Assembly (NCBI GenBank): GCA_903944345.1
Contig: CAJARJ010000011.1
Coordinates: 3,460 to 67,459 of the forward strand
Source: Candidatus Omnitrophota bacterium
GTDB taxonomy: Bacteria; Omnitrophota; Gorgyraeia; Zapsychrales; Fredricksoniimonadaceae
DNA length: 64,000 bases
Direction: 5' to 3'
Shown here: positions 814 to 19,431 of the stretch, in pieces
Position numbering within the stretch: position 1 is the stretch's first letter
How the letters are laid out: every line of letters starts with the position of its first letter
Notes under the pieces: model-generated
Seen by the model: only the letters and a program-made list of their open reading frames with translations
Database searches by the model: none
What the model was told of the DNA's origin: nothing
Position numbers and translations under genes: made by a program

Positions 814-3800
814 TCAGGGGGAAATAAAAAACGCCCGGATGTCTTTTTCAGGTTTTATGGCCACAATCACCGGAACTAGCCCGCTGATATCCGCATATTT
901 TTGTAAAATAGCCGGCGAAATATCCATGTCCATACCACCATCATGGCTTATGGCAAGATCAAAACGGGAAGTATCCAGATCAATACCACCGGGATTATCT
1001 TCCGGCACAGACGTGTGATCCGGATCAGCAGGTATTCCCCTGTCTTCCTCGATCAAACGAAGTGTTCGATCAACAGAAAAAGGCAAAAAACTCCCCGCAT
1101 TTACCCGGTTTACCTGCCAGGCCGCGTTTAACAAAAACAGCCAGGCCGAAGGATGACGCAAAAGAGATTCCCCTGAAACTCCCGTGAAAAGATCATCAAG
1201 TCTTTGCGCATAACTATTCTCCAGCAGTAATGTTCCATTATCAGTTAACCGCATTCTCCCCTTCATGCCCGGTCCGGCAGGAGCTATATTCAACCGGGAC
1301 AAATCCACCCCCAGAAGCCGCTGACTGTCAGCAAAAAGACGACGGCTCCATTCCTGCGCACCAGGCAGCCAAGCGGGTGCAACGCTGTCGCGAGAGATCT
1401 GCCCGGCTGAAGAGTCCCCAGAAGATTGAAGAAAATTGTTTATATCCGGAAGATTTACCGGTTTGACGGCCTCAGCCTCGCCGGATTTCTGCCGGACTGT
1501 TTGCGTTTCTTCAGGCTTTTGCGCGGATGCCTTACGCGACCGACGGGAAGCAATCGAAGCTCTGGCAAAAATGATCCCGGTTACAATAAGAAAAAAAGCC
1601 GTGATACCTCCCACAACGAAAGCAACCGGGTGCATCAGAATTTTCGCCGCTCTGGCACGGAAGGAGAAATCGTCCGCCACCTTGTACTCGCGGGAAACAT
1701 CCTTGAATGAATCCTGGAACTCTGTCAGCCCGACGCTTGAATCGCCAGAAACAGTCGAAGGCACTCCCGTGTCTGTACCAGGCACCGGAGGATCGTACTC
1801 TCCTTGCACATTCCGGACATTGACAATGTTGTCCGTTCCCCAGGAAAAAGGAATAATCGTACCGTTCTGTCCGACAACATAAGTATCCGCATGATAACTG
1901 TTGGAGAAAACTCTTCCGTAGTTCTTGTAAATATGCACACTGCTGTCCAAAGCACGATAACCCATACGATTTAGAAACAACCCGTAATACCGGCTGATAT
2001 CTCCGCAGGCTCCTCCAGCTTTTTTATCCGGGTCACCTCCACCGGTAATTTTCATCAAAGCGTCTGTTGCGGTGACATCCCCCTGATAAACCTCTCTGGT
2101 ATCATCGTACTCAATAAAGTCTGCGGTCATTTCCAGTGTCTTAAGAACCTTTTCCCTGGCAGAGAGAGAAACGTCTTCGGAAATGGCGCGTATTTTCTTT
2201 TCCAGAACAGGATAAGTCTGCATGGCATGAAACTCCTGGTTGTCCTGATCAACCACCGGAATCTGCCCAGCAGGAAGACGATTGTTTTTATCCCGGCGCG
2301 GAATAATATACGTGATTGTTCCTGAGGAAGTAAAATCCTGCTTCACCGTGACATGCCCCCGGCTGATCGAAGTCTGGTCAAAAAGCGCCAAAGGAATAGT
2401 TGATGTCATAATTCTCTCGGGAACACCGTCTACAATCTGCGGAAAATAAATAGTCTCTCCGGCCTGATGCGGCCCCAACGGCATGGTAACAATAACCGCT
2501 TCTCCTGTCCGCTTGCCCTGCGGCTCCATTTCCCTTAAAGCAACTGTTTTCCCGTTTCCGTCGGAATAATGAAAGGCATGGATCAGATACTCCCCCGGGC
2601 GCATTCCTGTCACCTGATAAAGTGAAACGGCATTCCTGCTTTCAGGAACAGATCGAGGCAATTCAATACCATTCGTCAGATACGGATAACCACCTTGTTC
2701 AGCCAGAAAAATAACCGCTCCAGTCAACGCAACCGCCGCTGCCTTGCGCCACCTGACAGGAAAAACACGCTCAAGGGTTACCGAAAAGGTCTCACTGGTA
2801 CTCAAAGGACGGGCTTTCAGGACTGACGGAATATCTTCGTGCTGGGGAGGAAGAATGAAGGGCGAATCGATTTCCGGTGCATCGAGTGTCTGAACAGAAC
2901 CGCCGCGGTAAATGTCCAGAAGGCTCATCGGGCCATTAACCGTATCAAACTTCACCCGCACCATCAAACGGTACCAGTGTTTTAACATGTCTTCTTCCGG
3001 CACCAGATCAAAGCGGCTCTGCTTGTCGGAGGATGTATAGGCATTATTCAAATAGGCTGAAAATCTCCTGATCTCGGGATACCTGCTCTCATCTTCGCCG
3101 GCTCTCTCCAGAGAGGCCTTGACAGAAGCGACAATGTCAGGATCATTTATCCTGTCTGAACGCACCGCCAGAGCCAGCATGGCCTTAAGCCCTTCACTTG
3201 CGCGGATCAATGGCCAGTACGCCGGATAAGCCGGCTCCGTGCGGGCCTTGGTGGGCAAAATACCGTCCGGTATTTCCGTATCCACCCCCCATGACAAAAG
3301 AGTGCGCTGGACTTCCACCGGAATAACACCGTCCCAATATCTGGAGGCCACCGCGTCCAGAGGTGCCGGCATGGGCAGATTGTCCTGCAAAACCCTGCTA
3401 AGAGAATGCCCTGTGATCAAAAGACGCGAATCGGAAAAATCTCCGAAACGCAAAGACGCAGCAGGCTCTCCCGGGCGATTGAGTTTTTCTCCGTTTAAAA
3501 AAATATCGACATCTTCCACCGCACTTCCATAGTACTCAAACCGTTTCTTTATTTTGCTGGCGTAGCGCCTCAGCTCCGCCATCGATTCAAACACCCTTTC
3601 CTGGCGGATCAAGGTTCCGTGAAGAGGCTCTTGATCCTGCAAAGACACCACTTCCCGTTCCTGGAGCGAATCAACCACCAATGTCCCGTCTTCCTTCCTG
3701 GAAGCTGAAAGCACAAACCCGTAATTTGCAGGGGCCCCGGCGGCCACACGGGAGACCGGCAGGCTTTCAACCACAATCCTGTCGCCAGGAAGGGTTTGGG

Positions 3801-6800
3801 CCCATATGGTATAAAAGCCCTGCCCCATATGACGCGACTTACTGGTGGCATCCAGAGGAAGAAGTTTGTTAATCATGACATAATCATCCATGCCATCGCC
3901 TTTGTCCCGGATCTGGAGAGCCAGCGTATATTTCCCGTCAGTACGCGCAACAGAGTACAGGCGCACAGCAATGTCTTTCTGTTGGCCCTCCTGTCCGGAA
4001 CGAAGTGCGTCCCGGGCATTCTGCAAAAGCTCCCGCGGCAAGGTGGTAGGATCCTGCCCCGAGATGGCCGAAAAAATTTCCTGATCATAACCGGCTTTGA
4101 CATCCCCAGGAAAAGAAGAACCCAGTTCTCTGTCCAGCCCGGAGATATCCAGATCAGAATCTGCCCGGTTACGCGCGGAAAGAATATGGGCCAAAGGGAT
4201 ATCTTCAAGGCTATGAATTATTTTCCCTTCCCCGGGGACAAGAGATTCGAAGGTATCTCTCGCTGGCACAGACATGGCCAAGGGGTATAAAAGAGCATGC
4301 CAGAACTCCCGCATGGCCGGCGGGGCCTGATCCTGGTATTCGGACGCAAGCAAACGAACACCGGGCATTGTTTCCTGTCCGACAACATACCTGCGGTTTA
4401 TTTGATCCAGAAACCCTCTCGCCGAGAAAGGATCATCTCCGGCAAGCGCTTCTACCCAGGCAGACACAACCGTATTGAGCTTTTCCGGAACAAGCGTATC
4501 GAGAACAGGATCCATCCTCTCAAAAAAAAGGAACAACTCATTCTCCGCGGACAAAACGGTTGTCTGCACATACCTGAGAAGCGAAGAACGAACTTCATCA
4601 GAAAGCCGTCCTAATACCCGAGCCGAGGCAAACGGCAAAAGTGGGGCAAGAGAATCTGTTATAAGCTCAGGCGGCAAAGAAGCCAGATTGTCGAAAAGCC
4701 GCCGAAGTCTCAGAACGGAGAGATATTCTTTTCCTGACTCCGACTCCGGCACGGCCTCAATTTCTTCCGAAGAAGGGAAATCGAGCCTCTTCCAAAACTT
4801 CTTCATTGACCCCGTCGCCGGCAACAAAACATGGTCCGCGGCCAACACAGGAGTGGAACTCCATTCTCCCGGGGGAAGAAGTTCCCATAAATTATAAAAA
4901 CGACGGGCTTCCTTATCGAATATATAACCAGAGAACTTTTCTATAGAACCAATGCCGCCACCCAAAACAACAAAATCATATCGACCCGGTCCGCCGATAT
5001 AACGTGTAACATCTCTATCTGCGGGAAGTGGTATTTCCTGCAAGGAGCCATCGGCAAGATCAATACTCACCAATTTCTTTCCGGCCACTCCGTAAAGGCT
5101 GCCCTGCCAACGGGTAAAACTTAAGTCCGACTCTTCCGTATTCAGTTTCCCACGAAGAACAAGACCATCAAAAACCGTATATTGACTGCCTATCGTATAA
5201 ACATAAAGGCAGACTTCTCCGGATTTTTTTTTGCTCCTGGTCAAGGCGTAAACATATTTATCATCAGCTGAAGAATATAACAGTTTTTGATTAGACGGAT
5301 AAATAATAACCGGTATCCGCTTGATCTTTCTTTCCGAAAGAGTAACTCGTGCGATTACACCCATGCCACCCAGAAAAAATTTGTCAGCAATATAAACATC
5401 TCCCTCAGGCCCGGGGACCGGAGCCATCGCCGATGGAGAGGAATATCTGTAAGACCTCTTCTTGTTCAGATCAAAAAGCAAATGAGCCCAGTTTCCGAAT
5501 ACAGGTATACTCAAATCAACGAACCCTGGAACGGACTTTGAAGGAAGAAGTTTTGATAAATGAGCTTCGAAACTGGAAAGATCAAAGTGCTTCCTCAAGA
5601 AATAAAGCCCACCATAATCTGAAATCAAAAGCCACCACAAAGAATAACCTATACCAAGGAAGGTAAATAAATATGATAATGCGTAATAATAAGTAAAATA
5701 GTACTGATACTGAAGGCAAAGAATCAAAAACGCAGCAATTTCTAGTGATTGACGAATCCGCAGACCTTCCCCGGGAACGATATTCTTTCTGACATCCCAG
5801 AACGTTTGCCGCGCAATAATGGATATCAGACCAACAGAAATCAGCCCTATTGTCGATGTAAAACCACCTACTGCATATACACCAAGAGCGATCACTGCCA
5901 GAGACATAACTGAAACCAGTAAATGAACGACATCTCCAGCAGACAACTTGTTTCTTAACGGAATATTCATCACAAAACGCCCCTGGTTCACAGTCAAACC
6001 AAACGGAGTGGCTGTTGAATTTTGCAGCAAATCATGGGATGAATACCTCCCGCTTTTCTTGCCCGTAAGAGAGTTGATCGCCCAACGATAGGATCTATCA
6101 GCTCTTTGCTCCCATCCAATAATTTCGTTGCTATTGAATACTGACTCATTGTTCGTATCGGTCACAACAAATTCAGGAGCGTCATTCCACAGATAATGAC
6201 CGTCACTCAGCGCACCCTGCGGGTGCATCTTGCGGAAAGGTCTCCAGTCGGGGTCATCCGCATCCGGTTTTGACACCGTTGAAATCATTACGCCGTCGCT
6301 GGTAACCTCCTCCACAGTATTAGCACCTAGTGTCCCGGATGACGACTCGACCGACTCCACGGCCTGGGCGAGGCCATTCGCGCTCAGTGCAGCCGATTGC
6401 AGGTTATTACGAAGCCTTTGAGTGTCTCCGGCGGAAAGTCCGGATCCCTCTTCTAATCTCTGCAAAACAATCCCCAAATCTTCCTTCAGATTCCCGGCCT
6501 CTTCTGCCGGTAAAGTAAAGCTGACAATACCGTTCTCCCGCAAAACAGCATTCATAAACTCTGCCGACTTGTGCCTGTCGGGTGCCTGTAACAGTGTTTC
6601 TTCCTGGGAATTCGATATAAACAACGCTTCTCTGCCAAAAGGAATCATCAATGCTTTATCCTCCGACGGCAAGACATAAACTCTCTGCCCGCGAAAAGAC
6701 CGGGAACGGTTCAGCGAAGAATCCAGAAGCTCGCTTGAGCCTGTAAAAAATGCATCATCCAGATAAAAAAGCGCCAGACCTGAAAGATCCTGCCCCTCCA

Positions 6801-9258
6801 AAGCTCCGGATAAAGTCCGTGGCAGAAAAAGTATATTTCCGTAATTCTGCTGTAAATACGGCAAAAAAAGCTCTTTTCTGGCACGGCTGACGAAATCTTC
6901 CACAAAATCATACCCATTACCAGCCACCGCTCTTTTACGCAAGAACATCATGACCCGCAAATACCCGTTGATCATGGCAAGAACCTGGGAGACATTCCCC
7001 CAGAAAAGACGCTCCCGCATCTTGAGCAGAAAATCACCGGTCAGGACATGAATACTGCTTTCAACTGTAGCATCAATAACAATATCGTTCTTGTCATCCG
7101 TCAGGGTTGTTACCGCCGGAAGACGAATGGTCAGTTCTTCCGGAAGAATATTCCCCTCTGCTCCTGTTTCCTGCTCAACCATGGATCTTCCGCCGGCATA
7201 AATCCGCATCTTCATTTGCTTTTGTGTAGTTCCCTGGGATATTTCGGCATCAACAGCTTTCTCGATATCCACTTGAGTGCGCCTGCGGACAAGATCATCC
7301 GGAGTATTTTCTCCTGCCCGGGGACGCGGAAGTTTTGTCAGAAGCACTGAATCGCTCATGCCGTCGGCGTGATCCCGCACAGAGAAACCGTCTTTAAAAA
7401 TATTAACCTCCAAAGACAATCCCTGATCATCAACAAGATATTTGTTCTCCAATCCCTGACCGCCAAAATAAACTGTGTCCCGATGCGGATTAACCAGCTC
7501 GCCGTTCAAAACTATTCTGATCTGATTGTTCCACCCGTATTTGACACGAACAGCCACTTGCATCCGGCTGATAAAATCCGGATCCCGCTCAAAACGGCTC
7601 AAGCGGGCGGTAAATGTTGTGCCCACATCAAACGTCCCCGGGAGTTTGTCGAAATAAATATGTATTTTCCCGCCCCTGCGAAAGAAAAGAACCCTCCTGC
7701 CTTCTCCCTTGTCACCTGGAGTAGACGTAACCCAGCTGATCATATCTCCCTTAAGCTGGCCATCTTCACGGCGCAGTTCTTCCTGTAAATACGAGAGCAC
7801 CTGCAACCCTCCCTCTCCGAACTGCCCCAAAGAAAAATCAAGGCCCAGTTTCCGGAAAACGGCATCTATCGAATTATCCATCAATTCAAAAACCGGACTG
7901 AATTCATCTCCCGACTGCTGGAAAACATGGGTATTCCCCCGCCCCTCGGAAACCCGTCCGGAAATGATCTCCTTGAGTTTTCTGTTACCGTCGGGGGTAT
8001 ACCACCTGCTGAAATCCTCTGCCGACACGTCCCGGATATATGGAAAAAACTTCTGCCACTCGAAAGACATATCCAGGTTAAAAGGCGGAATATCTGCCGC
8101 GCTTTCGGCGGCATCTGTTTCACCTTGCCGCAGCACATCCGGAGCATTGCTCCACTCTTTGGCTGTAACCTCAATAACCATTCCCCGGGCCGGAACATGA
8201 GCCGGATCAAAAGGCAACATCTGCATGGCCAGATCAATCGCCTCGCCCTGAAAACCGCCGGAGAAATATTTCCGGGGAAGATCTTCGCCGGTAAACAAAT
8301 CAGTTTCATTTTTGATATAATTGAAAACGCCTTTCCTAAAAGCCTCCATATACTTCTGCCAGATCTTTTTCGCTTCTTCGGGATCGTCAATATTAACTCC
8401 AGCCGTCTTGTTCCTGTCCACATACACCGCCGAAAGAAGCGACTGCCTGATTTTCTTTTTGTACCACGCCGCCAAAATCAACGACTGGTACACCTGCCGG
8501 AGCCGGGTAAAATGTTCTCCTTCGTTGACCTCTTTCTCCATCTCGGGAATAACAACTTCACGCAGGACAGCACGGGCAATCTCTGAAGCCGAAGATATCA
8601 CTGGTGCCGAAACAGTCTCACTGCCTGAGGCCAGATAATCCTGTTCAAGCATCACCTTCAGCCGCGATTGCGTGATATACACCGCACCGGCTTGCACATT
8701 CTCATACACCACGGCCTTATCGGGAACAATCCAGACCTTGTTGAACGTGTCTATCGGAATATCCGTCGTACCATATTTCTCCTGCGCCAGGGCGTACACC
8801 TTCTGCCAGAACTTCTTTCCTGTCTCACCCTCGGGATAAAGCAAAGATGCGGTCAGCTGTTTGAGAATATAGTCCTGCTCCAGAAGATCCCGGCCCATTT
8901 CAGTCTGGCCAAAAGCTTCGGGGATAATACGGTCTTTTTCGTAGGGACTCAAATTGACCCACAGGTCTTTTCCGGGGATAGTCAGACTGGCCAGAAAATA
9001 CCTGATAAGCCTTTCGGATTCTTTCTTAAGATCGGATCCTTGGGGCAATCGGCTTCCCGGATCAAGGATAAAGTCAAAACGAAACGGCTCTTTAGGGTAC
9101 ACCTTAAGCCCTGTGAGCACAGGAGGAGAAAAAACAGGACTTAAAAACAATCTTTCACTAGGCGGAGGCAGGAAGGACTGGGCATGCCCGGAAGAAACGC
9201 TCTGGAACGAAAAGGCCAGCAAAAGGATACAACAAATAACTTTCCTTATAGTATACAT
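814..9258 (-). CDS. Giant secreted/membrane protein (2814 aa), paralog B. It has a signal peptide, the shared N-terminal module, a long unique middle with an internal block of about four TM helices, a TM helix near the C-terminus, and the shared C-terminal tag.
   Basis: Single uninterrupted ORF. Signal peptide MYTIRKVICCILLLAFSFQSVSSGHAQS. N-terminal ~330 aa are 60-65% identical to the 936- and 1384-aa proteins. TM-like runs include HLLVSVMSLAVIALGVYAVGGFTSTIGLISVGLISIIA and LAFLILCLQYQYYFTYYYALSYLFTFLGIGYSLWWLLI. C-terminal motif PGGIDLD...GLVPVIVAIKP. Confidence 0.8.
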   Translation of the reverse strand: MYTIRKVICCILLLAFSFQSVSSGHAQSFLPPPSERLFLSPVFSPPVLTGLKVYPKEPFRFDFILDPGSRLPQGSDLKKESERLIRYFLASLTIPGKDLWVNLSPYEKDRIIPEAFGQTEMGRDLLEQDYILKQLTASLLYPEGETGKKFWQKVYALAQEKYGTTDIPIDTFNKVWIVPDKAVVYENVQAGAVYITQSRLKVMLEQDYLASGSETVSAPVISSASEIARAVLREVVIPEMEKEVNEGEHFTRLRQVYQSLILAAWYKKKIRQSLLSAVYVDRNKTAGVNIDDPEEAKKIWQKYMEAFRKGVFNYIKNETDLFTGEDLPRKYFSGGFQGEAIDLAMQMLPFDPAHVPARGMVIEVTAKEWSNAPDVLRQGETDAAESAADIPPFNLDMSFEWQKFFPYIRDVSAEDFSRWYTPDGNRKLKEIISGRVSEGRGNTHVFQQSGDEFSPVFELMDNSIDAVFRKLGLDFSLGQFGEGGLQVLSYLQEELRREDGQLKGDMISWVTSTPGDKGEGRRVLFFRRGGKIHIYFDKLPGTFDVGTTFTARLSRFERDPDFISRMQVAVRVKYGWNNQIRIVLNGELVNPHRDTVYFGGQGLENKYLVDDQGLSLEVNIFKDGFSVRDHADGMSDSVLLTKLPRPRAGENTPDDLVRRRTQVDIEKAVDAEISQGTTQKQMKMRIYAGGRSMVEQETGAEGNILPEELTIRLPAVTTLTDDKNDIVIDATVESSIHVLTGDFLLKMRERLFWGNVSQVLAMINGYLRVMMFLRKRAVAGNGYDFVEDFVSRARKELFLPYLQQNYGNILFLPRTLSGALEGQDLSGLALFYLDDAFFTGSSELLDSSLNRSRSFRGQRVYVLPSEDKALMIPFGREALFISNSQEETLLQAPDRHKSAEFMNAVLRENGIVSFTLPAEEAGNLKEDLGIVLQRLEEGSGLSAGDTQRLRNNLQSAALSANGLAQAVESVESSSGTLGANTVEEVTSDGVMISTVSKPDADDPDWRPFRKMHPQGALSDGHYLWNDAPEFVVTDTNNESVFNSNEIIGWEQRADRSYRWAINSLTGKKSGRYSSHDLLQNSTATPFGLTVNQGRFVMNIPLRNKLSAGDVVHLLVSVMSLAVIALGVYAVGGFTSTIGLISVGLISIIARQTFWDVRKNIVPGEGLRIRQSLEIAAFLILCLQYQYYFTYYYALSYLFTFLGIGYSLWWLLISDYGGLYFLRKHFDLSSFEAHLSKLLPSKSVPGFVDLSIPVFGNWAHLLFDLNKKRSYRYSSPSAMAPVPGPEGDVYIADKFFLGGMGVIARVTLSERKIKRIPVIIYPSNQKLLYSSADDKYVYALTRSKKKSGEVCLYVYTIGSQYTVFDGLVLRGKLNTEESDLSFTRWQGSLYGVAGKKLVSIDLADGSLQEIPLPADRDVTRYIGGPGRYDFVVLGGGIGSIEKFSGYIFDKEARRFYNLWELLPPGEWSSTPVLAADHVLLPATGSMKKFWKRLDFPSSEEIEAVPESESGKEYLSVLRLRRLFDNLASLPPELITDSLAPLLPFASARVLGRLSDEVRSSLLRYVQTTVLSAENELFLFFERMDPVLDTLVPEKLNTVVSAWVEALAGDDPFSARGFLDQINRRYVVGQETMPGVRLLASEYQDQAPPAMREFWHALLYPLAMSVPARDTFESLVPGEGKIIHSLEDIPLAHILSARNRADSDLDISGLDRELGSSFPGDVKAGYDQEIFSAISGQDPTTLPRELLQNARDALRSGQEGQQKDIAVRLYSVARTDGKYTLALQIRDKGDGMDDYVMINKLLPLDATSKSRHMGQGFYTIWAQTLPGDRIVVESLPVSRVAAGAPANYGFVLSASRKEDGTLVVDSLQEREVVSLQDQEPLHGTLIRQERVFESMAELRRYASKIKKRFEYYGSAVEDVDIFLNGEKLNRPGEPAASLRFGDFSDSRLLITGHSLSRVLQDNLPMPAPLDAVASRYWDGVIPVEVQRTLLSWGVDTEIPDGILPTKARTEPAYPAYWPLIRASEGLKAMLALAVRSDRINDPDIVASVKASLERAGEDESRYPEIRRFSAYLNNAYTSSDKQSRFDLVPEEDMLKHWYRLMVRVKFDTVNGPMSLLDIYRGGSVQTLDAPEIDSPFILPPQHEDIPSVLKARPLSTSETFSVTLERVFPVRWRKAAAVALTGAVIFLAEQGGYPYLTNGIELPRSVPESRNAVSLYQVTGMRPGEYLIHAFHYSDGNGKTVALREMEPQGKRTGEAVIVTMPLGPHQAGETIYFPQIVDGVPERIMTSTIPLALFDQTSISRGHVTVKQDFTSSGTITYIIPRRDKNNRLPAGQIPVVDQDNQEFHAMQTYPVLEKKIRAISEDVSLSAREKVLKTLEMTADFIEYDDTREVYQGDVTATDALMKITGGGDPDKKAGGACGDISRYYGLFLNRMGYRALDSSVHIYKNYGRVFSNSYHADTYVVGQNGTIIPFSWGTDNIVNVRNVQGEYDPPVPGTDTGVPSTVSGDSSVGLTEFQDSFKDVSREYKVADDFSFRARAAKILMHPVAFVVGGITAFFLIVTGIIFARASIASRRSRKASAQKPEETQTVRQKSGEAEAVKPVNLPDINNFLQSSGDSSAGQISRDSVAPAWLPGAQEWSRRLFADSQRLLGVDLSRLNIAPAGPGMKGRMRLTDNGTLLLENSYAQRLDDLFTGVSGESLLRHPSAWLFLLNAAWQVNRVNAGSFLPFSVDRTLRLIEEDRGIPADPDHTSVPEDNPGGIDLDTSRFDLAISHDGGMDMDISPAILQKYADISGLVPVIVAIKPEKDIRAFFISP

Positions 9259-9386: not shown

Positions 9387-9434
9387 AACAATTCTGTGTG
9401 TCACCGATTACCTAATTCTGTGTGTCACCGATTA
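9387..9434. repeat. Two copies of the 18-bp motif AACAATTCTGTGTGTCAC, arranged as a 2 x 21-bp tandem direct repeat (aattctgtgtgtcaccgatta, 3-bp spacer cct) upstream of the giant gene.
   Basis: Seen directly. The same 18-mer is at 775-792 (one G-to-A change) and inverted at 700-717. A partial copy (cagaattgt) is at 14407-14415. Confidence 0.7.
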
Positions 9435-10460
9435 ACGAACTCTCTCTCCAATAAACTCAAAATAAGGAGAAAGCACATCCTCTTCAGGAAAAACCTCGGG
9501 AGCAATCCGAAAAAAAAGTTTTTTGAAATCCTCCAAATGATAATCCAGTATCGTCAAATCCGTATCATAACGACTGGAACGCACCTGATTGTGCATGCAA
9601 AAAAAATAACGAGCGCTTGAGAAAACCCGTGAACGAAAATAATATTCAAACCACTCCCGGGACATCTCCCCCAACGAAGAAATTCCGCTGAAAACATCAA
9701 CTGACCCTGTTTGCAGCCGCTCATAAAGAAACGGCGGCAACAGAATAAAATCATGCGCCAGAATAAAATCACGATCAATTGACTCCAGCGCTGCTATCGT
9801 CTGATAGGAAGCAATCTTCGCCTCCGGAAAATGTGTTTGCAAGTAATAATGCGCCAGCGCCAAAGGCTCGGGAAAGTCCAGCAACACCTGAGAACAACAA
9901 GGATTATCTCTTTTTATCAAGGCAGAGAAATATCCATAATTCCCTCCAACATCCATCAAGGTAAAATTCTCCTCCAGCCCTGGCAAAACATAATGCCGGA
10001 ATAGCAGCAAAAAATAGACCCGAATCAGCCATTTCTTTGTAAATGTATACCCGTTATAGAAAAACAATATCGGGCCTCCCACATCATCACAGGGATAGTC
10101 ACGCAAAAGATCAAGAACACCAACTCCTCCAAGACAGACCTCTTTGCAAGCCTTGTAAAGAAGCAAAAGCTCCTTGCGCTCCTGCGGCAATATTTTATCT
10201 GCATTACGAGATCCCAACGGATTATGCCGGGAAGGGATATCCGCAATAAATATCTCCAGATTGCGAAAATTTCTTACTGCCTCACGATTCAAAGTCCCGT
10301 CAGGAGAAACAAATTTATCTGCCCGGGGATAAACCTGGGCCTCCGATGTCCCACCAAGATAAAGTTCCGGCTGCGAGCAAAGAAATTCTTTTTGCATACG
10401 CAAATCCTGCTCAATAAGGCCAAACAGGAATTGCTCTCTGTTCGACAAAACCATACCCAT
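9432..10460 (-). CDS. Class I SAM-dependent methyltransferase (FkbM / sugar O-methyltransferase-like).
   Basis: Glycine-rich SAM motif LMDVGGNYGYFSALI. 342 aa. Embedded in the paralog array. Confidence 0.55.
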   Translation of the reverse strand: MGMVLSNREQFLFGLIEQDLRMQKEFLCSQPELYLGGTSEAQVYPRADKFVSPDGTLNREAVRNFRNLEIFIADIPSRHNPLGSRNADKILPQERKELLLLYKACKEVCLGGVGVLDLLRDYPCDDVGGPILFFYNGYTFTKKWLIRVYFLLLFRHYVLPGLEENFTLMDVGGNYGYFSALIKRDNPCCSQVLLDFPEPLALAHYYLQTHFPEAKIASYQTIAALESIDRDFILAHDFILLPPFLYERLQTGSVDVFSGISSLGEMSREWFEYYFRSRVFSSARYFFCMHNQVRSSRYDTDLTILDYHLEDFKKLFFRIAPEVFPEEDVLSPYFEFIGERVR

Positions 10461-10495: not shown

Positions 10496-11437
10496 TCAAC
10501 GCCGCATCAGTCTTATTAACCAGAATAAAAACGGCCCGTAGCACAAAAGACAACCGATAAAAAGAAAAGGGGCAAAAGGAACACGAGACTTGATTTCCTT
10601 CATATGCTCGCTCAGTTCATTGACAATTTGTGAGAAAATGGTCAATGGAATCATGCGCAGCAAAAACCTTCCCGCAGCATCCGCCGAAAATATTGTATAC
10701 GAACTAAAGAACTGGAACAAAAGTCCCCCAAGGGCAAAAGTATAAACAAAACATTTAAAAAGCTTTCCGGAAGGATTCAGGGCAAATACCCCGCGATAAA
10801 TAAAGAAGATAATACAAATAACCAAAGGATTCCCCGAAGGTATCCTGAAGAAACCAAAAAGAGGGAAAATGGCCCATGAGATGACGGTTGTTATTTCAAA
10901 CGAATAAATCAGATTTTGTACTGTTTTTAACGAACACACCGCCCTGAAAATATCACGAAAATGAGAAACAACCCCGTCAAAAATCATCGGGAAAAGGAAA
11001 ACCATGCCCGCCAGGAATGTATTAATAAAATGCGCCAGACAAGGAAGCGGCGCTGACCTCTCATAAATATGGGAAGGCATAAGAAGGGCATACACCATAA
11101 AAAGCTTGGCATCCCCCGGTCTCCAGATATTGTTAACAAAAAGCAGAAAGGCCCCCAGCGCCGCTGCCGCAACATTTACAAGAAGAGGCACAGGCTCAAT
11201 GATATGCGCCATAACAGCCCAGACATGCAGAAAAATCCCGGCCAGGGAAGCAACAATAAGGTGAATATTCCTGATCTTGCGTTCCCGGATATCCGTAAAA
11301 GAAGTCATAGCCCCGGTTACAACAAGCAAAACCCAAAGAAGGGCCAAATAAATCCCGTATGGAGCTATTGTCATGAAAAGACCCTGGAAGATTATTTCAA
11401 ACCTACGTGCAACTGTTGAACTATATTGTCCGGCCAC
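10496..11437 (-). CDS. Polytopic membrane protein with an A24-family aspartic peptidase signature (prepilin peptidase / CpaA-TadV-like) and an extra C-terminal ~4-TM extension.
   Basis: TSFTDIRERKIRN after TM1 matches D-x-R-x-R-x-I-P-N (P replaced by R). WRPGDAKLF matches the GGGDVKL second-aspartate motif. About 8 predicted TM helices. No pilin or flp gene nearby. Confidence 0.45.
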   Translation of the reverse strand: MAGQYSSTVARRFEIIFQGLFMTIAPYGIYLALLWVLLVVTGAMTSFTDIRERKIRNIHLIVASLAGIFLHVWAVMAHIIEPVPLLVNVAAAALGAFLLFVNNIWRPGDAKLFMVYALLMPSHIYERSAPLPCLAHFINTFLAGMVFLFPMIFDGVVSHFRDIFRAVCSLKTVQNLIYSFEITTVISWAIFPLFGFFRIPSGNPLVICIIFFIYRGVFALNPSGKLFKCFVYTFALGGLLFQFFSSYTIFSADAAGRFLLRMIPLTIFSQIVNELSEHMKEIKSRVPFAPFLFIGCLLCYGPFLFWLIRLMRR

Positions 11438-11529: not shown

Positions 11530-14274
11530 TCAGCGAAGAATACCGCTCTCCAACGGACGAATAAACTCGATTCGAACCTTCAAACCTTCCAGCCTGATTC
11601 CGGAGAAGTCCTGCTCTGACACCGGAAGAGGAATGCCTTCTCCATCACGCTGGATCTGCATATCAAGATGTTTCTGGGCCAGATCGATACCACCAACCTC
11701 ATCACTTCGGACAGGGATTGCAGATGCATCGGCGGCTGCCGCAGCAAACTCATTACGATAAGCCTCAACCCTGGCAATAACCCCATCAAGTTCATCAGCA
11801 CTCTCAATATCTCCTGCCGGAATATCAAAGTCGATCCACTGGGTGCGAGGAATATGTACCCCCAGATACAAACGCTCAGCATCAAGTCTCATGGTAAGAT
11901 CTGACGCTTGCTTACGGGCCAAGGCGAGAAAATCATCCATTAACTTTATTCGGGCTTCTCTAAGGGTACCGTCCAACAGGCGCGCCACGCCACCCCAACC
12001 CAAATCAGTCAACCGGGACAACGCAGGATTAAACAAAGTAACATCCATCAGCTTGCGATTCCGGTAACCGGACTGTGTCACGGCAATCTTGACAAATGTC
12101 ATCCCGCTATAAACTTCAACATCAAAAGCCGTCGCTTTGTAAGGGACAAGCGCAGGGAAAAATGCTTTTAAAAGCGACATCGTCACCCTTTGATCCGGAA
12201 CTATCCTGCCCTCGATGGAAAGCCGCTCCTGTCTGGTGATCTGGCTTGGCCAAACAAAAGTTTTTTCCTGCACAGCCTTAGAGGCAATCTTCTGACGGAA
12301 AGATTCGTCCGCAAGCAACTGATTAAGGTCTTGAACCAGATCTCCTGATTCGACAGGAGTAACATCCAGCTCTGTTTTCAAAACCTCCAGAAGCTCTGTC
12401 GGAGACATTCCTGCTTGCTGAAAGTCTTCCCACTGAAAAAGCGCCAATTCAGGATATATAACATTCTCCAAATGGAACATCTTGCGCCCCGGCGCAAGCA
12501 TCATCTCCTGATCAGCAGAAATAACCCCCGTCAAAGACTGAAGGATTTCCGGTTTCTCCATGGCAGCAACGCTGATTTCTGTCCTCTGGACAGAAGAATC
12601 CCCCTCGGCCAGCAGCTCTAACCCTCTGGTATGCTGCTCCAGCATTGCGAGCAAAGACTGCGGAGTCACCTCAGCACCCGCAGGAAAACGCACATCAAAG
12701 GCATTCCCGTCCTGCGGAACAACCCGAAGAACAGGAATATTGCTCTGCATTTCGATGGTATAGCGAACAGACCTGTCGTTATCCTTAAGCTGTTGCAACA
12801 ACGCCGCAAGCCTGTCAGTCTGCAGACGCAATACCATGGCACGCAAAAAACTGACCGTATCCGACCAGTTGGCTTTGGCGAGTTCCAGAAACCGGGACTG
12901 ATCAACGCCAAACAGTGTTACTTGCATAAGAGCATCGGAGTCCTTATCGGAGACAACAACCTTCAAATACGGCATCGCTCCTCCGCTACTGATACTTACA
13001 TTATAAATATCCCTGCCTTTGTTTATCTGATATGCAACCATATTTGTGCCGGCATAAGACTTGCGAACCGGATCCTTGCCGGAAAGAACTCCCATAACCC
13101 GGAATAAATCAAGATTATAAATCTGGTTCTCCCGTAACGAAATGCTGAATTGCGCATCATCCACAGCGGAAACCAGTGAAACACGCATATCTTCCAGGCC
13201 AGAAACCTGGGCTTCGTCTGCGGACGAAAGCGCAGAAACGCGCTTGGCCGAATCGATGGCCGCTGTTGCATTGGTCATACCCCCCGAGAAATACTTGCGG
13301 GGAACCGGCTGGGCACCATAACTATCCACATCATCCCGGATCACGTTGTAGGCCCCGGCACGAAACGCCTCCAGATATTTCTGATAAATTTCTTCATTAA
13401 CCCGGGGATCCTGGCGAATTCCGGCCAGTCTTGATTTATCGCCGTAAAGCGACGTCAGTATGCTTTCCCTGAGAGCCTGTTTGTACCATGCCGCCAGGAG
13501 CATCCCGCTGTAAACCTGTCTTAACACCGCAAAATCCTTGCCTTCATTTACTTCCTGTTCAAGCACAGGCAGAATCACTTCCCGCATAACCTCACGGCTT
13601 AACTGTGTCAATTCCGTGTTTGCCGGCTCAAGGACATCCCGGCCCTGTGCGGCAAGGTAATCTGATTCCAGCTGAACCTTCAGCCGGGATTCAAGCACAT
13701 ACACGGCACTGCCCTTCTCATACAACTTTACCGAGTCGGGCGTAATCCACACCCGGTTGAACACATCGGTCGGGATATCCGTTATGGCATACTGGCGGTA
13801 AGCCCGCTCGTAAATTTTTTCCCAGAATTTTTTACCCAGCTCGGTGGAAGGATTACTTAAAGAAGAAGCCGCCTGCTTGAGCAGGTAATCCTGTACCAGC
13901 AAATCACGCCCCATCTCGGTCTGACCAAAGTTGTCGGCAATAATGCGGTCTTTTTCGAAAGGAGAAAGGTTCACCCACTGATCCGTGTCGGGCACTGTGA
14001 CCGAAGCCAGAAAATATCTGATCAAACGGCTGTATTGCTCCTGTTTTTGCGCATCATCCAGGCTAACATCTCCGCTTTGAACAATAAAATCCAGTTTGAA
14101 GGGATCTTTGGCATCAATAACAATCCCTTTAAGAACCGCAGGGCGATCCGTCGGAATGATCATGCCGGGCGAAACAGCAGGCGTTCCTGTCAGCTGAGCA
14201 AAAGCCGCGGAAGGAAGAAAAGTTGTGGAAACAAAACATAACAAAACAAAACAGGCAACAATACGTCGTAACAT
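11530..14274 (-). CDS. Secreted protein (about 915 aa from the MLRRIV start), paralog C: signal peptide, shared N-terminal module, unique middle, shared C-terminal tag.
   Basis: ORF 11530-14340. The likely start at 14274 (MLRRIVACFVLLCFVSTTFLPSAAFAQ) is preceded by AAAAGGAC. N-terminal module is about 65% identical to the giant protein. C-terminal VGGIDLAQKHL...GLKVRIEFIRP. Confidence 0.75.
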   Translation of the reverse strand: MLRRIVACFVLLCFVSTTFLPSAAFAQLTGTPAVSPGMIIPTDRPAVLKGIVIDAKDPFKLDFIVQSGDVSLDDAQKQEQYSRLIRYFLASVTVPDTDQWVNLSPFEKDRIIADNFGQTEMGRDLLVQDYLLKQAASSLSNPSTELGKKFWEKIYERAYRQYAITDIPTDVFNRVWITPDSVKLYEKGSAVYVLESRLKVQLESDYLAAQGRDVLEPANTELTQLSREVMREVILPVLEQEVNEGKDFAVLRQVYSGMLLAAWYKQALRESILTSLYGDKSRLAGIRQDPRVNEEIYQKYLEAFRAGAYNVIRDDVDSYGAQPVPRKYFSGGMTNATAAIDSAKRVSALSSADEAQVSGLEDMRVSLVSAVDDAQFSISLRENQIYNLDLFRVMGVLSGKDPVRKSYAGTNMVAYQINKGRDIYNVSISSGGAMPYLKVVVSDKDSDALMQVTLFGVDQSRFLELAKANWSDTVSFLRAMVLRLQTDRLAALLQQLKDNDRSVRYTIEMQSNIPVLRVVPQDGNAFDVRFPAGAEVTPQSLLAMLEQHTRGLELLAEGDSSVQRTEISVAAMEKPEILQSLTGVISADQEMMLAPGRKMFHLENVIYPELALFQWEDFQQAGMSPTELLEVLKTELDVTPVESGDLVQDLNQLLADESFRQKIASKAVQEKTFVWPSQITRQERLSIEGRIVPDQRVTMSLLKAFFPALVPYKATAFDVEVYSGMTFVKIAVTQSGYRNRKLMDVTLFNPALSRLTDLGWGGVARLLDGTLREARIKLMDDFLALARKQASDLTMRLDAERLYLGVHIPRTQWIDFDIPAGDIESADELDGVIARVEAYRNEFAAAAADASAIPVRSDEVGGIDLAQKHLDMQIQRDGEGIPLPVSEQDFSGIRLEGLKVRIEFIRPLESGILR

Positions 14275-14487
14275 GAACAGTCCTTTTCTTACAGAGTAAA
14301 ATCCGCCCCTCGCGTGTCGGGCCCGGACCGGATTAAACAACCAGGACAGAGAAGCCGATAAAGACTCTCTGCTATTCTATAATTTATTTGATTCGAAAGA
14401 TTCTAGCAGAATTGTCATAAAAAGTCAATTATGGCAATAAATGCAAGTTTTTGCAAAAACACTGGTCAACGATGCTGCAGGTAAGGG

Positions 14488-17400
14488 TTAGTTTGGAGTC
14501 AAGCCCAAAACAACTGAAAGCCGCGCGACCGGAGTCACTTCAAGAATGACGGGAGAAAGCCCATAAAAATCGCCCCGGAAGGCGCTCTGCAAAGCATCAA
14601 AACTGAAGGAAACCCGGCCTGGGTTGCGCTGACCGGACAGGACGATATCCTTGATGTCAATACCGCCAACAGGCTCCTGCGCCTGGTCTACCCCGTCGGG
14701 AATAGCCTGAACAATGCCTCCCGGAAGAATACCGTATTCCATAAGAACACGGAACACTTCCGAAACACTCCAGGCCTGGGAAGGCGTCCCGCCCGCAGAA
14801 CGCTGGCCATTTTCCCTAGGTTCGGCATCATAAACTTCCGCAATCGACCCTGTTGCCAGGAAATCCCGCACCAGCGGATCAAGCACCGCCGAGATTTCTC
14901 TTTTTATATCTTCATCCGGCCTGTTTTGCGCGCGCAAAACCTTGGCCAAAGCATCAACATACCCACCAATAAGCCATGGCCAAACCGTCCCCTGATGATA
15001 CGCATAATCTTTATGCCAATGGAAATCAGGATGTCCGGGAGAAGGCTGAAAAGATGTGTCATAACGCGGCCTGTAATGGGAATCCCTGGGGTCCAGCGTA
15101 CGCAGCCCCTTGTCGGTAAGAAGCCTTCGAGTCACCGCATCCACGACCTGCTTTTGTCTTTCAAAAGAAAGCAAATCCTCACCATGACTGACCGCAAAAA
15201 TCATGTTGGGCCGCACGGCGCCACCATGTGAATCCCCCTCGATCACATCAAAAAGTAAATTCTCAGGCTCATCAACATCTGCAGAAACCGGACGATCATT
15301 CCAGAACTTCTTGTTAAAACTGCTCTTGACCTTGAGCAACAAAGCCTGCAGCCTTGAGGCTTCAACCTCAACATCTTCGATATTCATCGAAACTTTCATT
15401 TGCTCGGTCAATTGCCCGCCCACCTCCGAGAGAAGACGCACCAGATACCTGAGATTCGCATACCACAAAGCATTGATCTCGACAGCTTTTCCATTGCGCG
15501 GCGTGACCGGCCCCTGTGCATTCGGATCGGCATCCATCCAGGTGGCCTGTGATGGGCTAGAAATCAGGGCATCCGAGGGATCCATGTAAATGCGGTTATA
15601 ATTATTTGCAGGAAAAGCGTTAATATGTTTGGAACGGTCATATCCGACGCCTTTTTCGTAGGCCGTCAGAATAGCACGGACAACCGGAAACATTTCCAGG
15701 GCAAAAGCCTGATCCCCGGAGTATTCAACGTACTTTTTGACCGCCTGGATAAACCACATCGGGCCGTCAACAGTATTGTACTCGTTCCACTCCGGATGAC
15801 GGGAATCTGGAATACGGTTGGGGATCAGTCCGTCTTTCATGAATGAAGCAAAACTGCGAATGACCGCGCGCGCTTCTTCAAAACGCCCGGTTGCAAGCAG
15901 AATACCTGGCAAGGAAATGAAGGTATCCCTCCCCCACTGCTCCAGAAACCATTCACTGGGACGCCCCGCAGCCCATATCTCGACAACAGGCTTCCCATTG
16001 CGCTCGACGTGCTGGACAAAGGAGTCGGCGGTCATGGCCAGGACACCCCGAAGCGCCGCACGCACCTCGACTGAAGCCCCTTCCAGGCTGAAATACCCCC
16101 CCCGATGCAAATCAGGCAGAAGTTCATGCAAACGAAACAAATCCGAAGCCTTGAACCTTGTCCGCGAAAAATAATCCTGATCACCGGGCAAAGGAATACG
16201 GTAACGCCAGGTGGAGTGACCATCAGCTTCTTTTTTGAGCGGCTGCTTATCTCCGTGAATATCTCCCATGGCCAGCGCAAGAAAAGACGAACGGCCCGCA
16301 GTCAGGCTGTCCAGTTCACGCTTGGCAGTCTGAACCTTGCGAATAAACGCCACCGAATTTGCATGATAGTTACGCGGATCATCGTGAGTCGATATACGTT
16401 TGTAAAGACCGTCCATTGGCACAATGCCATGACGTTGTATATCATAAAATGTATTGTTGAAGGCCTCGGCAACAACAAAGGCCTGACGGTCATTAAAGAT
16501 CTTTGCAACCGCAGCCACAAGGGCGTCACCGGGTTCAGCCTCAAGATTATCCTGTCCGATATTATAAGCAAAATGCAAAGCATCAATCCTGGCGCCGTCG
16601 AAACCGAAGTCCAGCCAGAATTGCATCGGATCGGTGATCAACCTGAATTTGTCTTCTTTAAGTTTATCCCAATTCCACAACGCCAGATCACCCCATACCA
16701 CCGGAAGGAAAGACAAGCCCGGGCTTAACCCCTCCTCAAGCCCGCGAAAATATTCCGGAGAGGCTGTAATATCAACACTGTCTTTTCCGCGAAAGAACGG
16801 AATATCAAACAACAGCTTGCCGCCCTCGGCATGAACCTGATCAACTGCTTTCCTGAACTGACGAAAGGCAATCCACTGCCGGAAAAGATGCTGCTGGATA
16901 TTCGACTGCCTGTCACCCGACTCTCTTTCAGCTTTCCAGCGGGCAAAGGTTTGCAGCTTCACCGACAGATTCGGATCCGTTTGAGTCTTCTCCAAAAAAT
17001 CTTTGGCAAGCGAAGTATCCTTACCCAGATGCCTGGACGAAAAAAGCCTCCAGACCTGCAAGGACAAAGCGGCATTACGCTCCCGGACAGAAGGAAAATC
17101 GATCTCGGCAGAAGTCCCGGCAGGAGCTTCAAGGAGATCTTTGACGGAAGCAAGAATAGCCTGTGCATCCTGATCATCCTCGGACATTTCCCGTATAAAA
17201 AGTTCCCAGTCAACCAGATCTTCGTTTAGCGCATATAGATATTCGGGAGCATACGGACTTTCGTGACGAATAGAATAAAACGGCATCAGCTGCATTACAG
17301 AAACACCCTGCGGTATGGCGGTCTCACGATAATATAAGGGAATATCCGAGAATTTGCCAATTCCCGGATCGCCCTGTTGGCGACGCAAAGCCGAAACAGC

Positions 17401-18606: not shown

Positions 18607-18731
18607 GTGTTTATTCTTTCGTTCTTTATCATCGTTTGGCATAATTAATTATTATATTGCAGTTAGAGTCATTTACATGCTTGCAATACAATACCTGACA
18701 CAAAAAAAAAGTCAAGCGCCTGCCACCTCAT

Positions 18732-19415: not shown

Positions 19416-19431
19416 TTTGTCCCCTTGTAAT

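What the first reader, a model, noticed from the sequence alone, without database searches (positions are those of the whole stretch)
10496..11437. Orphan A24-family (prepilin peptidase/TadV-like) membrane protease with no pilin gene, sitting in the paralog array
Its DIRERKIRN and GDAKL motifs match the two catalytic-Asp regions of A24 aspartic peptidases. There are no flp, pilin or tad genes in 64 kb. The protein is also about twice the usual TadV length, with four extra C-terminal TM helices. The adjacent paralogs have ordinary SPase I-type signal peptides, so any substrate is unclear. It may process the conserved tags or an unseen small substrate.
Basis: partly seen in the sequence, partly recalled or inferred. 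Interest (0 to 1): 0.55.

Follow-up and report, generated by a model that had tools for sequence, protein, structure and literature searches.

The report
Unusual ten-helix A24 membrane protease
This gene encodes a real but unusual relative of the membrane proteases that trim pilus subunits; its relatives in Omnitrophota bacteria and tiny archaea sit next to a radical-SAM "His-Xaa-Ser" peptide system rather than pilus genes, so it may be that system's missing leader-cutting enzyme, although this copy has no such partner within 64 kb.

Summary
The ORF at 10496-11437 (-) is real and belongs to the A24 aspartyl peptidase superfamily. Pfam PF01478 scores 28.1 bits against a cut-off of 26.5 and covers nearly the whole profile. 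Both catalytic Asp residues (D49, D109) show no substitution in 155 relatives. It is not a TadV/CpaA. It belongs to a distinct subfamily of about 290 aa and about 10 helices from Candidatus Omnitrophota. That subfamily is homologous over its full length to a 330-380 aa archaeal type that also carries an Arc_PepC domain. The extra helices are an insertion before a conserved final "PFAPF" helix, not a C-terminal tail. No pilin, flp or tad gene lies in the window or directly beside any of about 40 related loci. Instead, 10 of 17 peptidase-anchored loci, and 18 of 24 informative loci anchored on HxsD, pair it with an HxsD / HxsB radical-SAM module, usually with an HxsA3-like precursor. The window copy falls in a subclade that has left that neighbourhood. 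It keeps only a sugar O-methyltransferase neighbour and lies among Omnitrophota "N-module" secreted proteins. My best reading is an active cytoplasmic-face leader peptidase for a small exported substrate encoded outside the window. A trans-acting prepilin role cannot be excluded. Processing of the paralogs' C-terminal tags is unlikely.

The parts
10496..11437 (-). A24-like membrane peptidase gene (A24L). The maximal ORF is 313 aa from GTG; the probable true start is the ATG at 11374 (M22).
10997..11326 (-). Region matching Pfam PF01478 Peptidase_A24 (residues 38-147). It spans the first four helices and both Asp motifs.
   Evidence: AF2 helices
11267..11293 (-). Motif DIRERKIRN (residues 49-57). 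It holds the first catalytic Asp, D49, in a Lys/Arg-rich loop after TM1.
   Evidence: D49 is D in 153 of 153 aligned relatives; I55 and N57 are near-invariant.
11102..11116 (-). Motif GDAKL (residues 108-112), within W-R-P-G-D-A-K-L. It holds the second catalytic Asp, D109, in a GxGD-like context.
   Evidence: D109 155/155, G108 154/155, K111 155/155.
10598..10996 (-). Subfamily-specific insertion of about four to five helices (residues about 148-280), between the GxGD helix and the last helix.
   Evidence: AF2 model with pLDDT 85. Shared with the archaeal-type relatives. E. coli GspO has only about 45 residues between its GxGD Asp and the final AFGPW helix.
10553..10585 (-). Conserved last-helix motif RVPFAPFLFIG (residues 285-295), the counterpart of the Pro-containing terminal helix of canonical A24 peptidases.
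   Evidence: Local hhalign to GspO TIAFGPWLALG gives E = 0.035.
9432..10460 (-). Downstream neighbour, 35 bp away on the same strand: a putative sugar O-methyltransferase (TIGR04371 / NanM family). It is the only other window gene shared with related A24L loci.
   Evidence: 95.3 bits against a cut-off of 44; 48% identity to an L015 gene, 38% to an L008 gene
11530..14340 (-). Upstream neighbour: a 936-aa exported Omnitrophota N-module protein with a C-terminal GGIDL tag. Synteny with A24L is conserved only in close relatives.
814..9258 (-). 2814-aa N-module paralog flanking the A24L / O-methyltransferase pair on the other side.
   Evidence: The start of its ortholog is present in L020.

Best explanation
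The gene encodes an active GxGD-type aspartyl membrane peptidase of the A24 superfamily. It belongs to a distinct ten-helix subfamily confined to Candidatus Omnitrophota, with a sister form in DPANN-type archaea. It is not a pilus-locus TadV.

Its two Asp residues sit at the cytoplasmic membrane face. It most likely removes an N-terminal, positively charged leader from small exported proteins that are held in the membrane by a signal-anchor helix. The family's recurrent genomic partner is a variant His-Xaa-Ser (HXS) module made of HxsD, an HxsB-like radical-SAM/SPASM enzyme and an HxsA3-like precursor. The precursor leader carries an invariant E-[D/E]-G-x-[V/I]-x-K motif just before its hydrophobic segment.

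I infer that the ancestral job is cleaving that leader, probably after the invariant Gly. The window copy belongs to a derived subclade that moved out of the HXS neighbourhood into a cluster rich in radical-SAM and sugar-modification genes. Here it retains only a sugar O-methyltransferase neighbour. It therefore acts in trans on a substrate encoded outside the 64 kb window.

**Shown:** superfamily membership, conservation of the catalytic residues, the architecture, and the genomic association.
**Inferred:** protease activity, the cleavage site, and the substrate of this particular copy.
For: - **Membership.** PF01478 scores above its gathering cut-off with a near-full-length match. It also hits 19 of 21 family members and 34 of 34 archaeal-type relatives.
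- **Catalytic residues.** D49 is D in 153/153 and D109 in 155/155 family sequences. G108, K111, N57 and W105 are essentially invariant.
- **Topology.** Both Asp residues lie beside Lys/Arg-rich loops, that is, on the cytoplasmic side.
- **Structure.** The AF2 model is confident (pLDDT 85.3, pTM 0.73) and all-helical.
- **Family size and relatives.** There are 151 representative clusters at E <= 1e-30. Genome hits are all Omnitrophota or PVC-labelled MAGs. The sister group includes a Woesearchaeota protein and carries Arc_PepC. hhalign between the two groups gives probability 100% and E = 1e-52 over the full length.
- **Context when anchored on the peptidase.** HxsD and HxsB-like genes lie within 10 kb in 7 of 14 informative Omnitrophota loci, with an HxsA3-like precursor in all seven. 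They are directly adjacent in 3 of 3 archaeal-type loci, two of which also show the precursor.
- **Reciprocal test, anchored on HxsD-like.** 18 loci carry the peptidase within 7 kb, 6 with adequate flank lack it, and 56 are too short to tell.
- **Published gap.** In the characterised E. coli HXS antiphage system, HxsA needs a non-canonical N-terminal cleavage. That cleavage depends on HxsB/C/D and no protease has been identified (PMC13128918).
Against: - **No HXS partner here.** The window has no HxsA3-like, HxsB-like or HxsD-like gene in 64 kb. The window's subclade (L005, L006, L007, L012, L020, L021) has none within 10 kb.
- **The leader is not clearly prepilin-like.** The residue after the invariant Gly is F in Omnitrophota but R or K in the archaeal type. 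Charged residues lie between the Gly and the hydrophobic core. Three precursors also carry a classical A-x-A SPase I site. The conserved leader motif could simply be a radical-SAM recognition element.
- **No biochemistry.** Protease activity was not tested.
Confidence: 0.5

Rival explanations
1. It is a trans-acting prepilin / pre-Flp peptidase. Under this reading the enzyme serves a Tad, T2SS or type IV pilus locus elsewhere in the genome, and the genomic link to HXS and radical-SAM genes is incidental.
For: - It is a true A24 homolog with an intact catalytic dyad.
- Omnitrophota commonly encode Tad, T2SS and T4P systems (bioRxiv 10.64898/2026.06.07.730766).
- T2SSE and T2SSF genes lie 6-9 kb from the peptidase in L008 and L015, and a T2SSE-family gene lies at a similar distance in L013.
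- I could not check whether these genomes hold a separate canonical PilD or TadV.
Against: - No family member in about 40 loci sits directly beside a pilin, flp or tad gene.
- In L008 a Fic/HTH gene separates the T2SS genes from the HXS block.
- No NCBIfam prepilin-peptidase model hits the window protein.
- The architecture differs from TadV and PilD.
- Direct adjacency to HxsD is conserved across bacteria and archaea.
Confidence: 0.25
2. It is a non-proteolytic membrane component of a surface-glycan or sugar-modification pathway, acting as a scaffold or transporter. The A24 fold would have been re-used, and the gene's real partners are the neighbouring sugar O-methyltransferase and similar enzymes.
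For: - In the window's subclade the neighbours are a sugar O-methyltransferase, DegT aminotransferases, DUF2334/deacetylase, AsnB-like, MBOAT and PMT-type glycosyltransferases, and FemAB/GNAT-like genes.
- PMT, DegT, GT2 and deacetylase genes also flank the archaeal locus L025.
Against: - Both catalytic Asp residues, the GxGD-like glycine and the lysine are strictly conserved in 155 sequences. That is hard to explain without catalysis.
- I know of no precedent for a non-catalytic A24 protein (my own knowledge, not tested).
Confidence: 0.12
3. It processes the flanking N-module paralogs, either their signal peptides or their conserved C-terminal GGIDL tags.
For: - The gene sits between N-module genes.
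- The order 936-aa ortholog, then A24L, then one enzyme gene, then the 2814-aa ortholog is kept in relatives that are about 80% identical.
Against: - N-module proteins number more than 840 clusters across Omnitrophota, but none lies near the peptidase in the 15 more distant genome loci.
- Their N-termini look like SPase I signals.
- The tag is a soluble domain with no membrane helix, on the exported end of the protein. It is out of reach of an active site on the cytoplasmic face.
Confidence: 0.05

Closest known systems
Archaeal A24 peptidases carrying the Arc_PepC domain (Pfam PF01478 + PF06819), the FlaK/PibD-type preflagellin/prepilin peptidase lineage
   Same: - Homologous over the full length (hhalign probability 100%, E = 1e-52).
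- Same two Asp motifs, the same extra helices, and the same final PFAPF helix.
- The 3 of 3 archaeal-type loci I examined also sit beside HxsD and HxsB-like genes.
   Different: - The window protein lacks the soluble Arc_PepC insert of about 75 aa before the last helix.
- It is bacterial (Omnitrophota).
- No solved structure matched by sequence or Foldseek.
TadV / CpaA Flp prepilin peptidases (bacterial A24B-type)
   Same: - The D-x4-[R/K]-I-x-N first motif and the G-D-x-K-L second motif.
- No N-terminal methyltransferase domain.
- One metagenome pipeline names relatives 'CpaA'.
   Different: - About twice the length, with about 10 rather than about 5 helices.
- Arg replaces Pro in the first motif.
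- Never found in a tad/flp locus.
- No NCBIfam model matches.
PilD / GspO type IV prepilin peptidases
   Same: The catalytic dyad sits at the cytoplasmic face, and there is a terminal Pro-containing helix (GspO TIAFGPWLALG against RVPFAPFLFIG).
   Different: - No N-terminal Cys-rich / methyltransferase region.
- About 130 aa are inserted between the GxGD motif and the last helix.
HXS (HxsABCD) antiphage system of Pseudomonadota (PMC13128918)
   Same: Relatives of the window gene are linked to HxsD, an HxsB-like radical-SAM enzyme and His-Xaa-Ser precursors. In the published system HxsA needs an unexplained N-terminal cleavage.
   Different: - The published system has four genes, no peptidase, and two radical-SAM enzymes.
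- The variant here has one clear HxsB-like enzyme (367 bits against a cut-off of 370) and short HxsA3-like precursors without a recognised peptidoglycan-binding domain.
- The window itself has no HXS gene.
Leader peptidases of ribosomal peptide pathways, such as the C39 domain of PCAT exporters (works-like comparison only)
   Same: The proposed logic is the same: a membrane-associated protease removes a conserved leader ending in Gly, at export, from a peptide modified by a radical-SAM enzyme.
   Different: The fold and catalytic type are unrelated (Cys protease against a GxGD Asp protease), and there is no ABC transporter here.

Membership tests
Peptidase A24 superfamily (Pfam PF01478; GxGD aspartyl membrane peptidases) | Profile match at or above the curated threshold, over most of the profile | tested here: met
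   28.1 bits against 26.5, covering profile positions 3-102 of 104. 19 of 21 and 34 of 34 relatives also match.
Peptidase A24 superfamily (Pfam PF01478; GxGD aspartyl membrane peptidases) | Two catalytic Asp residues: one after TM1, one in a G-x-G-D-like motif | tested here: met
   D49 and D109 are present. They are D in 153/153 and 155/155 family sequences; the motif is W-x-[A/G/P]-G-D-[A/G]-K-L.
Peptidase A24 superfamily (Pfam PF01478; GxGD aspartyl membrane peptidases) | Both Asp residues at the cytoplasmic membrane face | tested here: inconclusive
   Positive-inside counting on the AF2 helices places both beside Lys/Arg-rich loops.
Peptidase A24 superfamily (Pfam PF01478; GxGD aspartyl membrane peptidases) | Fold similarity to a solved A24 structure (FlaK) | tested here: inconclusive
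Peptidase A24 superfamily (Pfam PF01478; GxGD aspartyl membrane peptidases) | Endopeptidase activity on a class III (prepilin-like) signal peptide | not testable with these tools
   Needs biochemistry.
TadV / CpaA Flp prepilin peptidase | Short protein (about 140-180 aa, about 5 helices) encoded in a tad/flp locus | tested here: not met
   313/292 aa with about 10 helices. No flp, tad or pilin gene in the window or directly adjacent in related loci. No NCBIfam hit.
Archaeal A24 + Arc_PepC architecture | A24 core plus extra helices plus a soluble Arc_PepC domain before the last helix | tested here: not met
   The core, the extra helices and the last helix align. The Arc_PepC segment is absent from the window protein and from the Omnitrophota type.
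Accessory gene of an HxsA3-type His-Xaa-Ser module (proposed here; not a curated family) | HxsD, an HxsB-like radical-SAM gene and an HxsA3-like precursor within about 10 kb | tested here: not met
   Absent from the 64 kb window. HxsD and HxsB-like genes are present in 10 of 17 peptidase-anchored loci, 9 of them with a detectable precursor. The peptidase is present in 18 of 24 informative HxsD-anchored loci.

The most novel reading that the evidence does not exclude
This ten-helix A24 subfamily is the dedicated leader peptidase of a previously undescribed variant of the HXS antiphage system, shared by Omnitrophota and DPANN archaea. It would cleave HxsA3-type precursors after the invariant E-[D/E]-G at the cytoplasmic membrane face, as or before the radical-SAM-modified effector is released outside the cell. 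That would name the type of enzyme that could perform the so far unexplained N-terminal maturation step of HxsA. It would also extend prepilin-peptidase chemistry to a non-pilin, ribosomal-peptide-like substrate. The window copy would be a detached member that acts in trans.
Probability: 0.35. Interest if true: 0.7.

Novelty: new variant of a known kind. Interest (0 to 1): 0.55.

Why it matters
A24 peptidases are known almost only as processors of pilins, archaellins and related class III signal peptides. This is a conserved subfamily with an enlarged membrane core. It is never found directly beside pilus genes. It is repeatedly linked, across the bacteria/archaea divide, to a radical-SAM His-Xaa-Ser module. 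That points to a new substrate class for this enzyme type.

The 2026 description of HXS as a phage DNA-entry block left the protease for HxsA maturation unidentified. This association gives a concrete and cheap experiment: co-express the peptidase, wild type and Asp mutants, with an HxsA3 precursor. It also adds to the picture of shared gene content between two lineages of ultra-small, host-associated microbes, which could reflect gene exchange.

Tried and rejected
- **Structure searches.**
  - Foldseek of the AF2 model against the PDB returned only noise.
  - A profile search of PDB sequences returned only chance hits to chlorophyll-binding proteins.
- **Prepilin-like substrates in the window.**
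  - A regex for G|xxxx[E/D] plus a hydrophobic stretch found nothing.
  - An HMM built from nine HxsA3-like precursors found nothing; the best E-value was 3.4.
- **HxsA3 leaders as bona fide class III signals.** I considered reading 'EDG|FVSKE' as G-1 / F+1 / E+5. I downgraded this for three reasons:
  - The +1 and +5 residues are not conserved in the archaeal type.
  - Charged residues interrupt the would-be pilin helix.
  - Three precursors carry an A-x-A SPase I site.
- **T2SSE/T2SSF genes in L008, L013 and L015 as evidence of a pilus system.** A Fic/HTH gene separates them from the HXS block in L008, and they occur in one clade only.
- **Other candidates.**
  - A 57-aa ORF in L027 looked like a possible precursor but had no leader or repeat features.
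  - The 342-aa neighbour is not homologous to the GNAT-like gene that flanks the peptidase in five other loci.
- **Classifying the radical-SAM enzymes.** PDB sequence searches could not tell peptide-modifying from sugar-modifying; the only hits were weak matches to PqqE and SkfB.
- **His-x-Ser density scan.** It was too strict to be useful.

Full report
**1. The observation**

The ORF at 10496-11437 on the minus strand is present as 313 aa from a GTG start. Alignment with homologs starts near Met22, so the ATG at 11374 is the more likely start and gives about 292 aa.

Pfam PF01478 (Peptidase_A24) matches residues 38-147 across profile positions 3-102 of 104. The E-value is 2.9e-6 and the score is 28.1 bits, just above the curated 26.5. 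No NCBIfam model matches.

The marginal score is backed by the family. PF01478 hits 19 of 21 close relatives (best E = 3.2e-9) and 34 of 34 members of a sister group.

Pfam scans of 39 of the window's long ORFs, which between them tile almost the whole 64 kb, show a glycogen-debranching-type enzyme, a chemotaxis operon, Suf genes and housekeeping genes. They show no pilin, Flp, Tad, T2SSE or T2SSF domain. A six-frame motif scan for prepilin-like N-termini found nothing.

**2. Architecture**

An AlphaFold2 model built on a 21-sequence alignment is confident (pLDDT 85.3, pTM 0.73) and entirely helical, with about ten membrane-length helices.

- D49 lies in a loop with four Lys/Arg residues just after helix 1.
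- D109 lies at the start of helix 4, after the short loop NNIWR.
- By the positive-inside rule both are on the cytoplasmic side, as in prepilin peptidases.

After the Pfam-matched core comes an extra region of roughly 130 residues (about 148-280). Then comes a last helix with the strongly conserved motif RVPFAPFLFIG.

In E. coli GspO, fetched as a canonical reference, the equivalent helix TIAFGPWLALG follows the GxGD Asp by only about 45 residues. It is the one segment that hhalign pairs with the family profile (local E = 0.035). The extra helices are therefore an insertion before a conserved terminal helix, not a C-terminal extension.

In 155 family sequences the conservation is as follows:

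| Residue | Conserved in |
|---|---|
| D49 | 153/153 |
| D109 | 155/155 |
| G108 | 154/155 |
| K111 | 155/155 |
| N57 | 153/153 |
| W105 | 154/155 |

This is the pattern expected of an active enzyme.

**3. Who has it**

A word-indexed search of 5.8 billion proteins found only 7 and then 22 relatives. An exhaustive HMMER search of 1.84 billion cluster representatives found 151 at E <= 1e-30 and 2369 at E <= 1e-3.

The top ~130 are proteins of about 290 aa. All 15 genome loci that encode them are Candidatus Omnitrophota MAGs, or MAGs labelled 'uncultured Planctomycetales'.

The next group is 330-380 aa. It includes a Candidatus Woesearchaeota protein and carries PF01478 plus the Arc_PepC domain in 18 of 34 members. 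The two groups align over the full length (hhalign probability 100%, E = 1e-52). They differ by a soluble insert of about 75 aa before the last helix in the archaeal type.

The window itself is from Omnitrophota. Its N-module domain has more than 840 homolog clusters, and nearly all of those that carry an organism name are from that phylum.

**4. Genomic context of relatives**

I called ORFs in 19 loci and clustered them. The peptidase is embedded in regions very rich in radical-SAM genes: 48 radical-SAM/SPASM genes of one family across 14 loci, plus a second radical-SAM family.

Other recurrent neighbours:
- DegT aminotransferases
- DUF2334/deacetylase-like genes
- ApbA-like reductases
- AsnB-like and AMP-binding enzymes
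- MBOAT and PMT-type transferases
- FemAB/GNAT-like genes

In seven Omnitrophota loci (L001, L008, L009, L010, L013, L014, L015) there is a His-Xaa-Ser module:
- An HxsB-like enzyme, scoring 367.1 bits against TIGR03978, whose cut-off is 370.
- An HxsD-like protein.
- Small precursors that weakly match NF038309 (HxsA3).

All three archaeal-type loci I could fetch (L022, L024, L025) have the peptidase immediately beside HxsD, a 77-92 aa protein and an HxsB-like enzyme. HxsA3-like precursors are visible in L022 and L024.

The precursors share four features:
- a Lys-rich N-terminus
- an invariant E-[D/E]-G-x-[V/I]-x-K motif
- a hydrophobic segment
- a short core with H-x-S/T/N repeats

**5. Reciprocal test**

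I anchored a metagenome scan on HxsD-like proteins and obtained 80 loci. I then searched them with HMMs for the peptidase, the precursor and HxsD, and by BLAST for the HxsB-like enzyme.

- 18 loci contain the peptidase within 7 kb.
- In three archaeal-type loci it lies directly upstream, with spacing from a 3-bp overlap to a 52-bp gap.
- 6 loci with adequate flank lack it.
- 56 loci are too short to say.

The association therefore holds in both directions and across two domains of life.

**6. Where the window copy sits**

Only two window genes have homologs in the related loci. One is the peptidase. The other is the adjacent 342-aa gene at 9432-10460, a putative sugar O-methyltransferase (TIGR04371, 95.3 bits against a cut-off of 44).

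A neighbour-joining tree places the window protein with L020, L021 and L005. That group falls in a derived subclade with L006, L007, L012 and the short locus L002. None of these loci shows an HXS gene; apart from the short contigs L002, L020 and L021, each was checked over up to 10 kb on either side. The longer ones (L005, L006, L007, L012) lie in the radical-SAM/DegT type of cluster.

In relatives that are about 80% identical, the gene order is: ortholog of the 936-aa N-module protein, peptidase, one radical-SAM/SPASM gene, ortholog of the 2814-aa protein. That radical-SAM gene is orthologous (about 40-45% identity) to genes in the L007 and L012 clusters.

The window locus therefore looks like a remnant of the larger cluster lodged in an array of N-module genes. 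N-module genes are absent from the 15 more distant genome loci.

**7. Mechanism**

*What is shown:*
- The protein is an A24 homolog with an intact and strictly conserved dyad.
- It has a distinct enlarged architecture.
- Its family is linked to HXS modules, and no pilus gene lies directly beside it in any locus examined.

*What I infer:* it is an active cytoplasmic-face endopeptidase that removes an N-terminal leader from small exported, membrane-anchored precursors. For the family as a whole, the HxsA3-type precursor is the best candidate substrate.

The published HXS system of E. coli and its relatives blocks phage DNA entry. It requires a non-canonical N-terminal cleavage of HxsA, which depends on HxsB, HxsC and HxsD. 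No protease is identified in that work (PMC13128918). I found no paper that links an A24 peptidase to HXS.

*Weak points:*
- The HxsA3 leader is only loosely prepilin-like.
- Some precursors also have a plain SPase I site.
- The window lacks any HXS gene, so the substrate of this copy is unknown.

**8. Rivals**

- **Trans-acting prepilin peptidase.** This remains possible. Omnitrophota commonly carry Tad, T2SS and T4P loci, and I could not check for a second, canonical peptidase in the same genomes.
- **Non-catalytic glycan-pathway role.** This fits the neighbours but not the invariant dyad.
- **Processing of the N-module paralogs or their GGIDL tags.** This is unlikely. The tags are soluble C-terminal domains found family-wide, and the synteny is lineage-specific.

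**9. Verdict**

This is a new variant of a known kind. Its interest comes mainly from the family-level link to the HXS radical-SAM module rather than from the window locus itself.

Noticed in passing
window 1-726 (-), 814-9258 (-), 11530-14340 (-), 14488-18642 (-): Four tandem paralogs share an N-terminal module of about 350 aa (39-47% identity) behind an SPase-I-like signal. One is fused to a GDE / GH77 glycogen-debranching enzyme. The module has more than 840 homolog clusters, and nearly all that carry an organism name are Omnitrophota. It is fused to varied C-terminal enzymes (methyltransferase, HAD, NUDIX, HEAT repeats). Pfam has no model for it.
   Followed up: partly
window about 820-990, 11533-11694, 14491-14667 (-): A conserved soluble C-terminal tag of about 55 aa, 'GGID..(L).QI.RDG.GVPLP....Q......I.G..P.I..I.P', ends the 2814-aa, 936-aa and GDE proteins. 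It recurs in many Omnitrophota N-module homologs. It has no hydrophobic helix and may be a secretion or anchoring signal.
   Followed up: partly
L005-L007, L011, L012, L015, L017 (whole loci): Omnitrophota loci carry extraordinarily dense runs of radical-SAM/SPASM genes, up to about 10 in 20 kb. They are mixed with DegT aminotransferase, DUF2334, AsnB-like, ApbA-like, AMP-binding, MBOAT and PMT genes. The product, whether a modified glycan, lipid or peptide, is unknown.
   Followed up: partly
L001 4693-5082, L008 about 5930-6210, L009 1326-1706, L010 11670-12095, L013 about 6330-6600, L014 5097-5381, L015 13812-14078, L022 5178-5471, L024 10454-10711: HxsA3-like precursors of 86-141 aa have an invariant leader motif E-[D/E]-G-x-[V/I]-x-K followed by a hydrophobic segment and H-x-S/T/N repeats. 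They are shared between Omnitrophota and DPANN-type archaeal contigs.
   Followed up: yes
L008 129-1783; L015 17336-20847; L013 10722-11882: T2SSE (PilB/GspE-like ATPase) genes lie just beyond the HXS block, 6-9 kb from the peptidase, in these three related loci. T2SSF (platform) genes accompany them in L008 and L015. In L008 a Fic/HTH gene lies between.
   Followed up: partly
L001 379-2662 and L010 6513-8886: A ketoacyl-synthase, an acyl-carrier protein and a second KS-like gene sit next to the GNAT-like gene that flanks the peptidase. This hints at acylation chemistry in this cluster variant.
   Followed up: no
window 18732-19640 (-): A 302-aa ORF encodes a Ser/Thr/Gly-rich, low-complexity, apparently exported protein with no Pfam match. 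The real start is probably internal, at 'MKNSVRWGATVLLVLCL'.
   Followed up: no
window 23807-27226 (-): A 1139-aa fusion protein combines MFS transporter, acyltransferase and AMP-binding domains. This is a lysophospholipid transporter / 2-acyl-GPE acyltransferase-acyl-ACP synthetase type of architecture.
   Followed up: no
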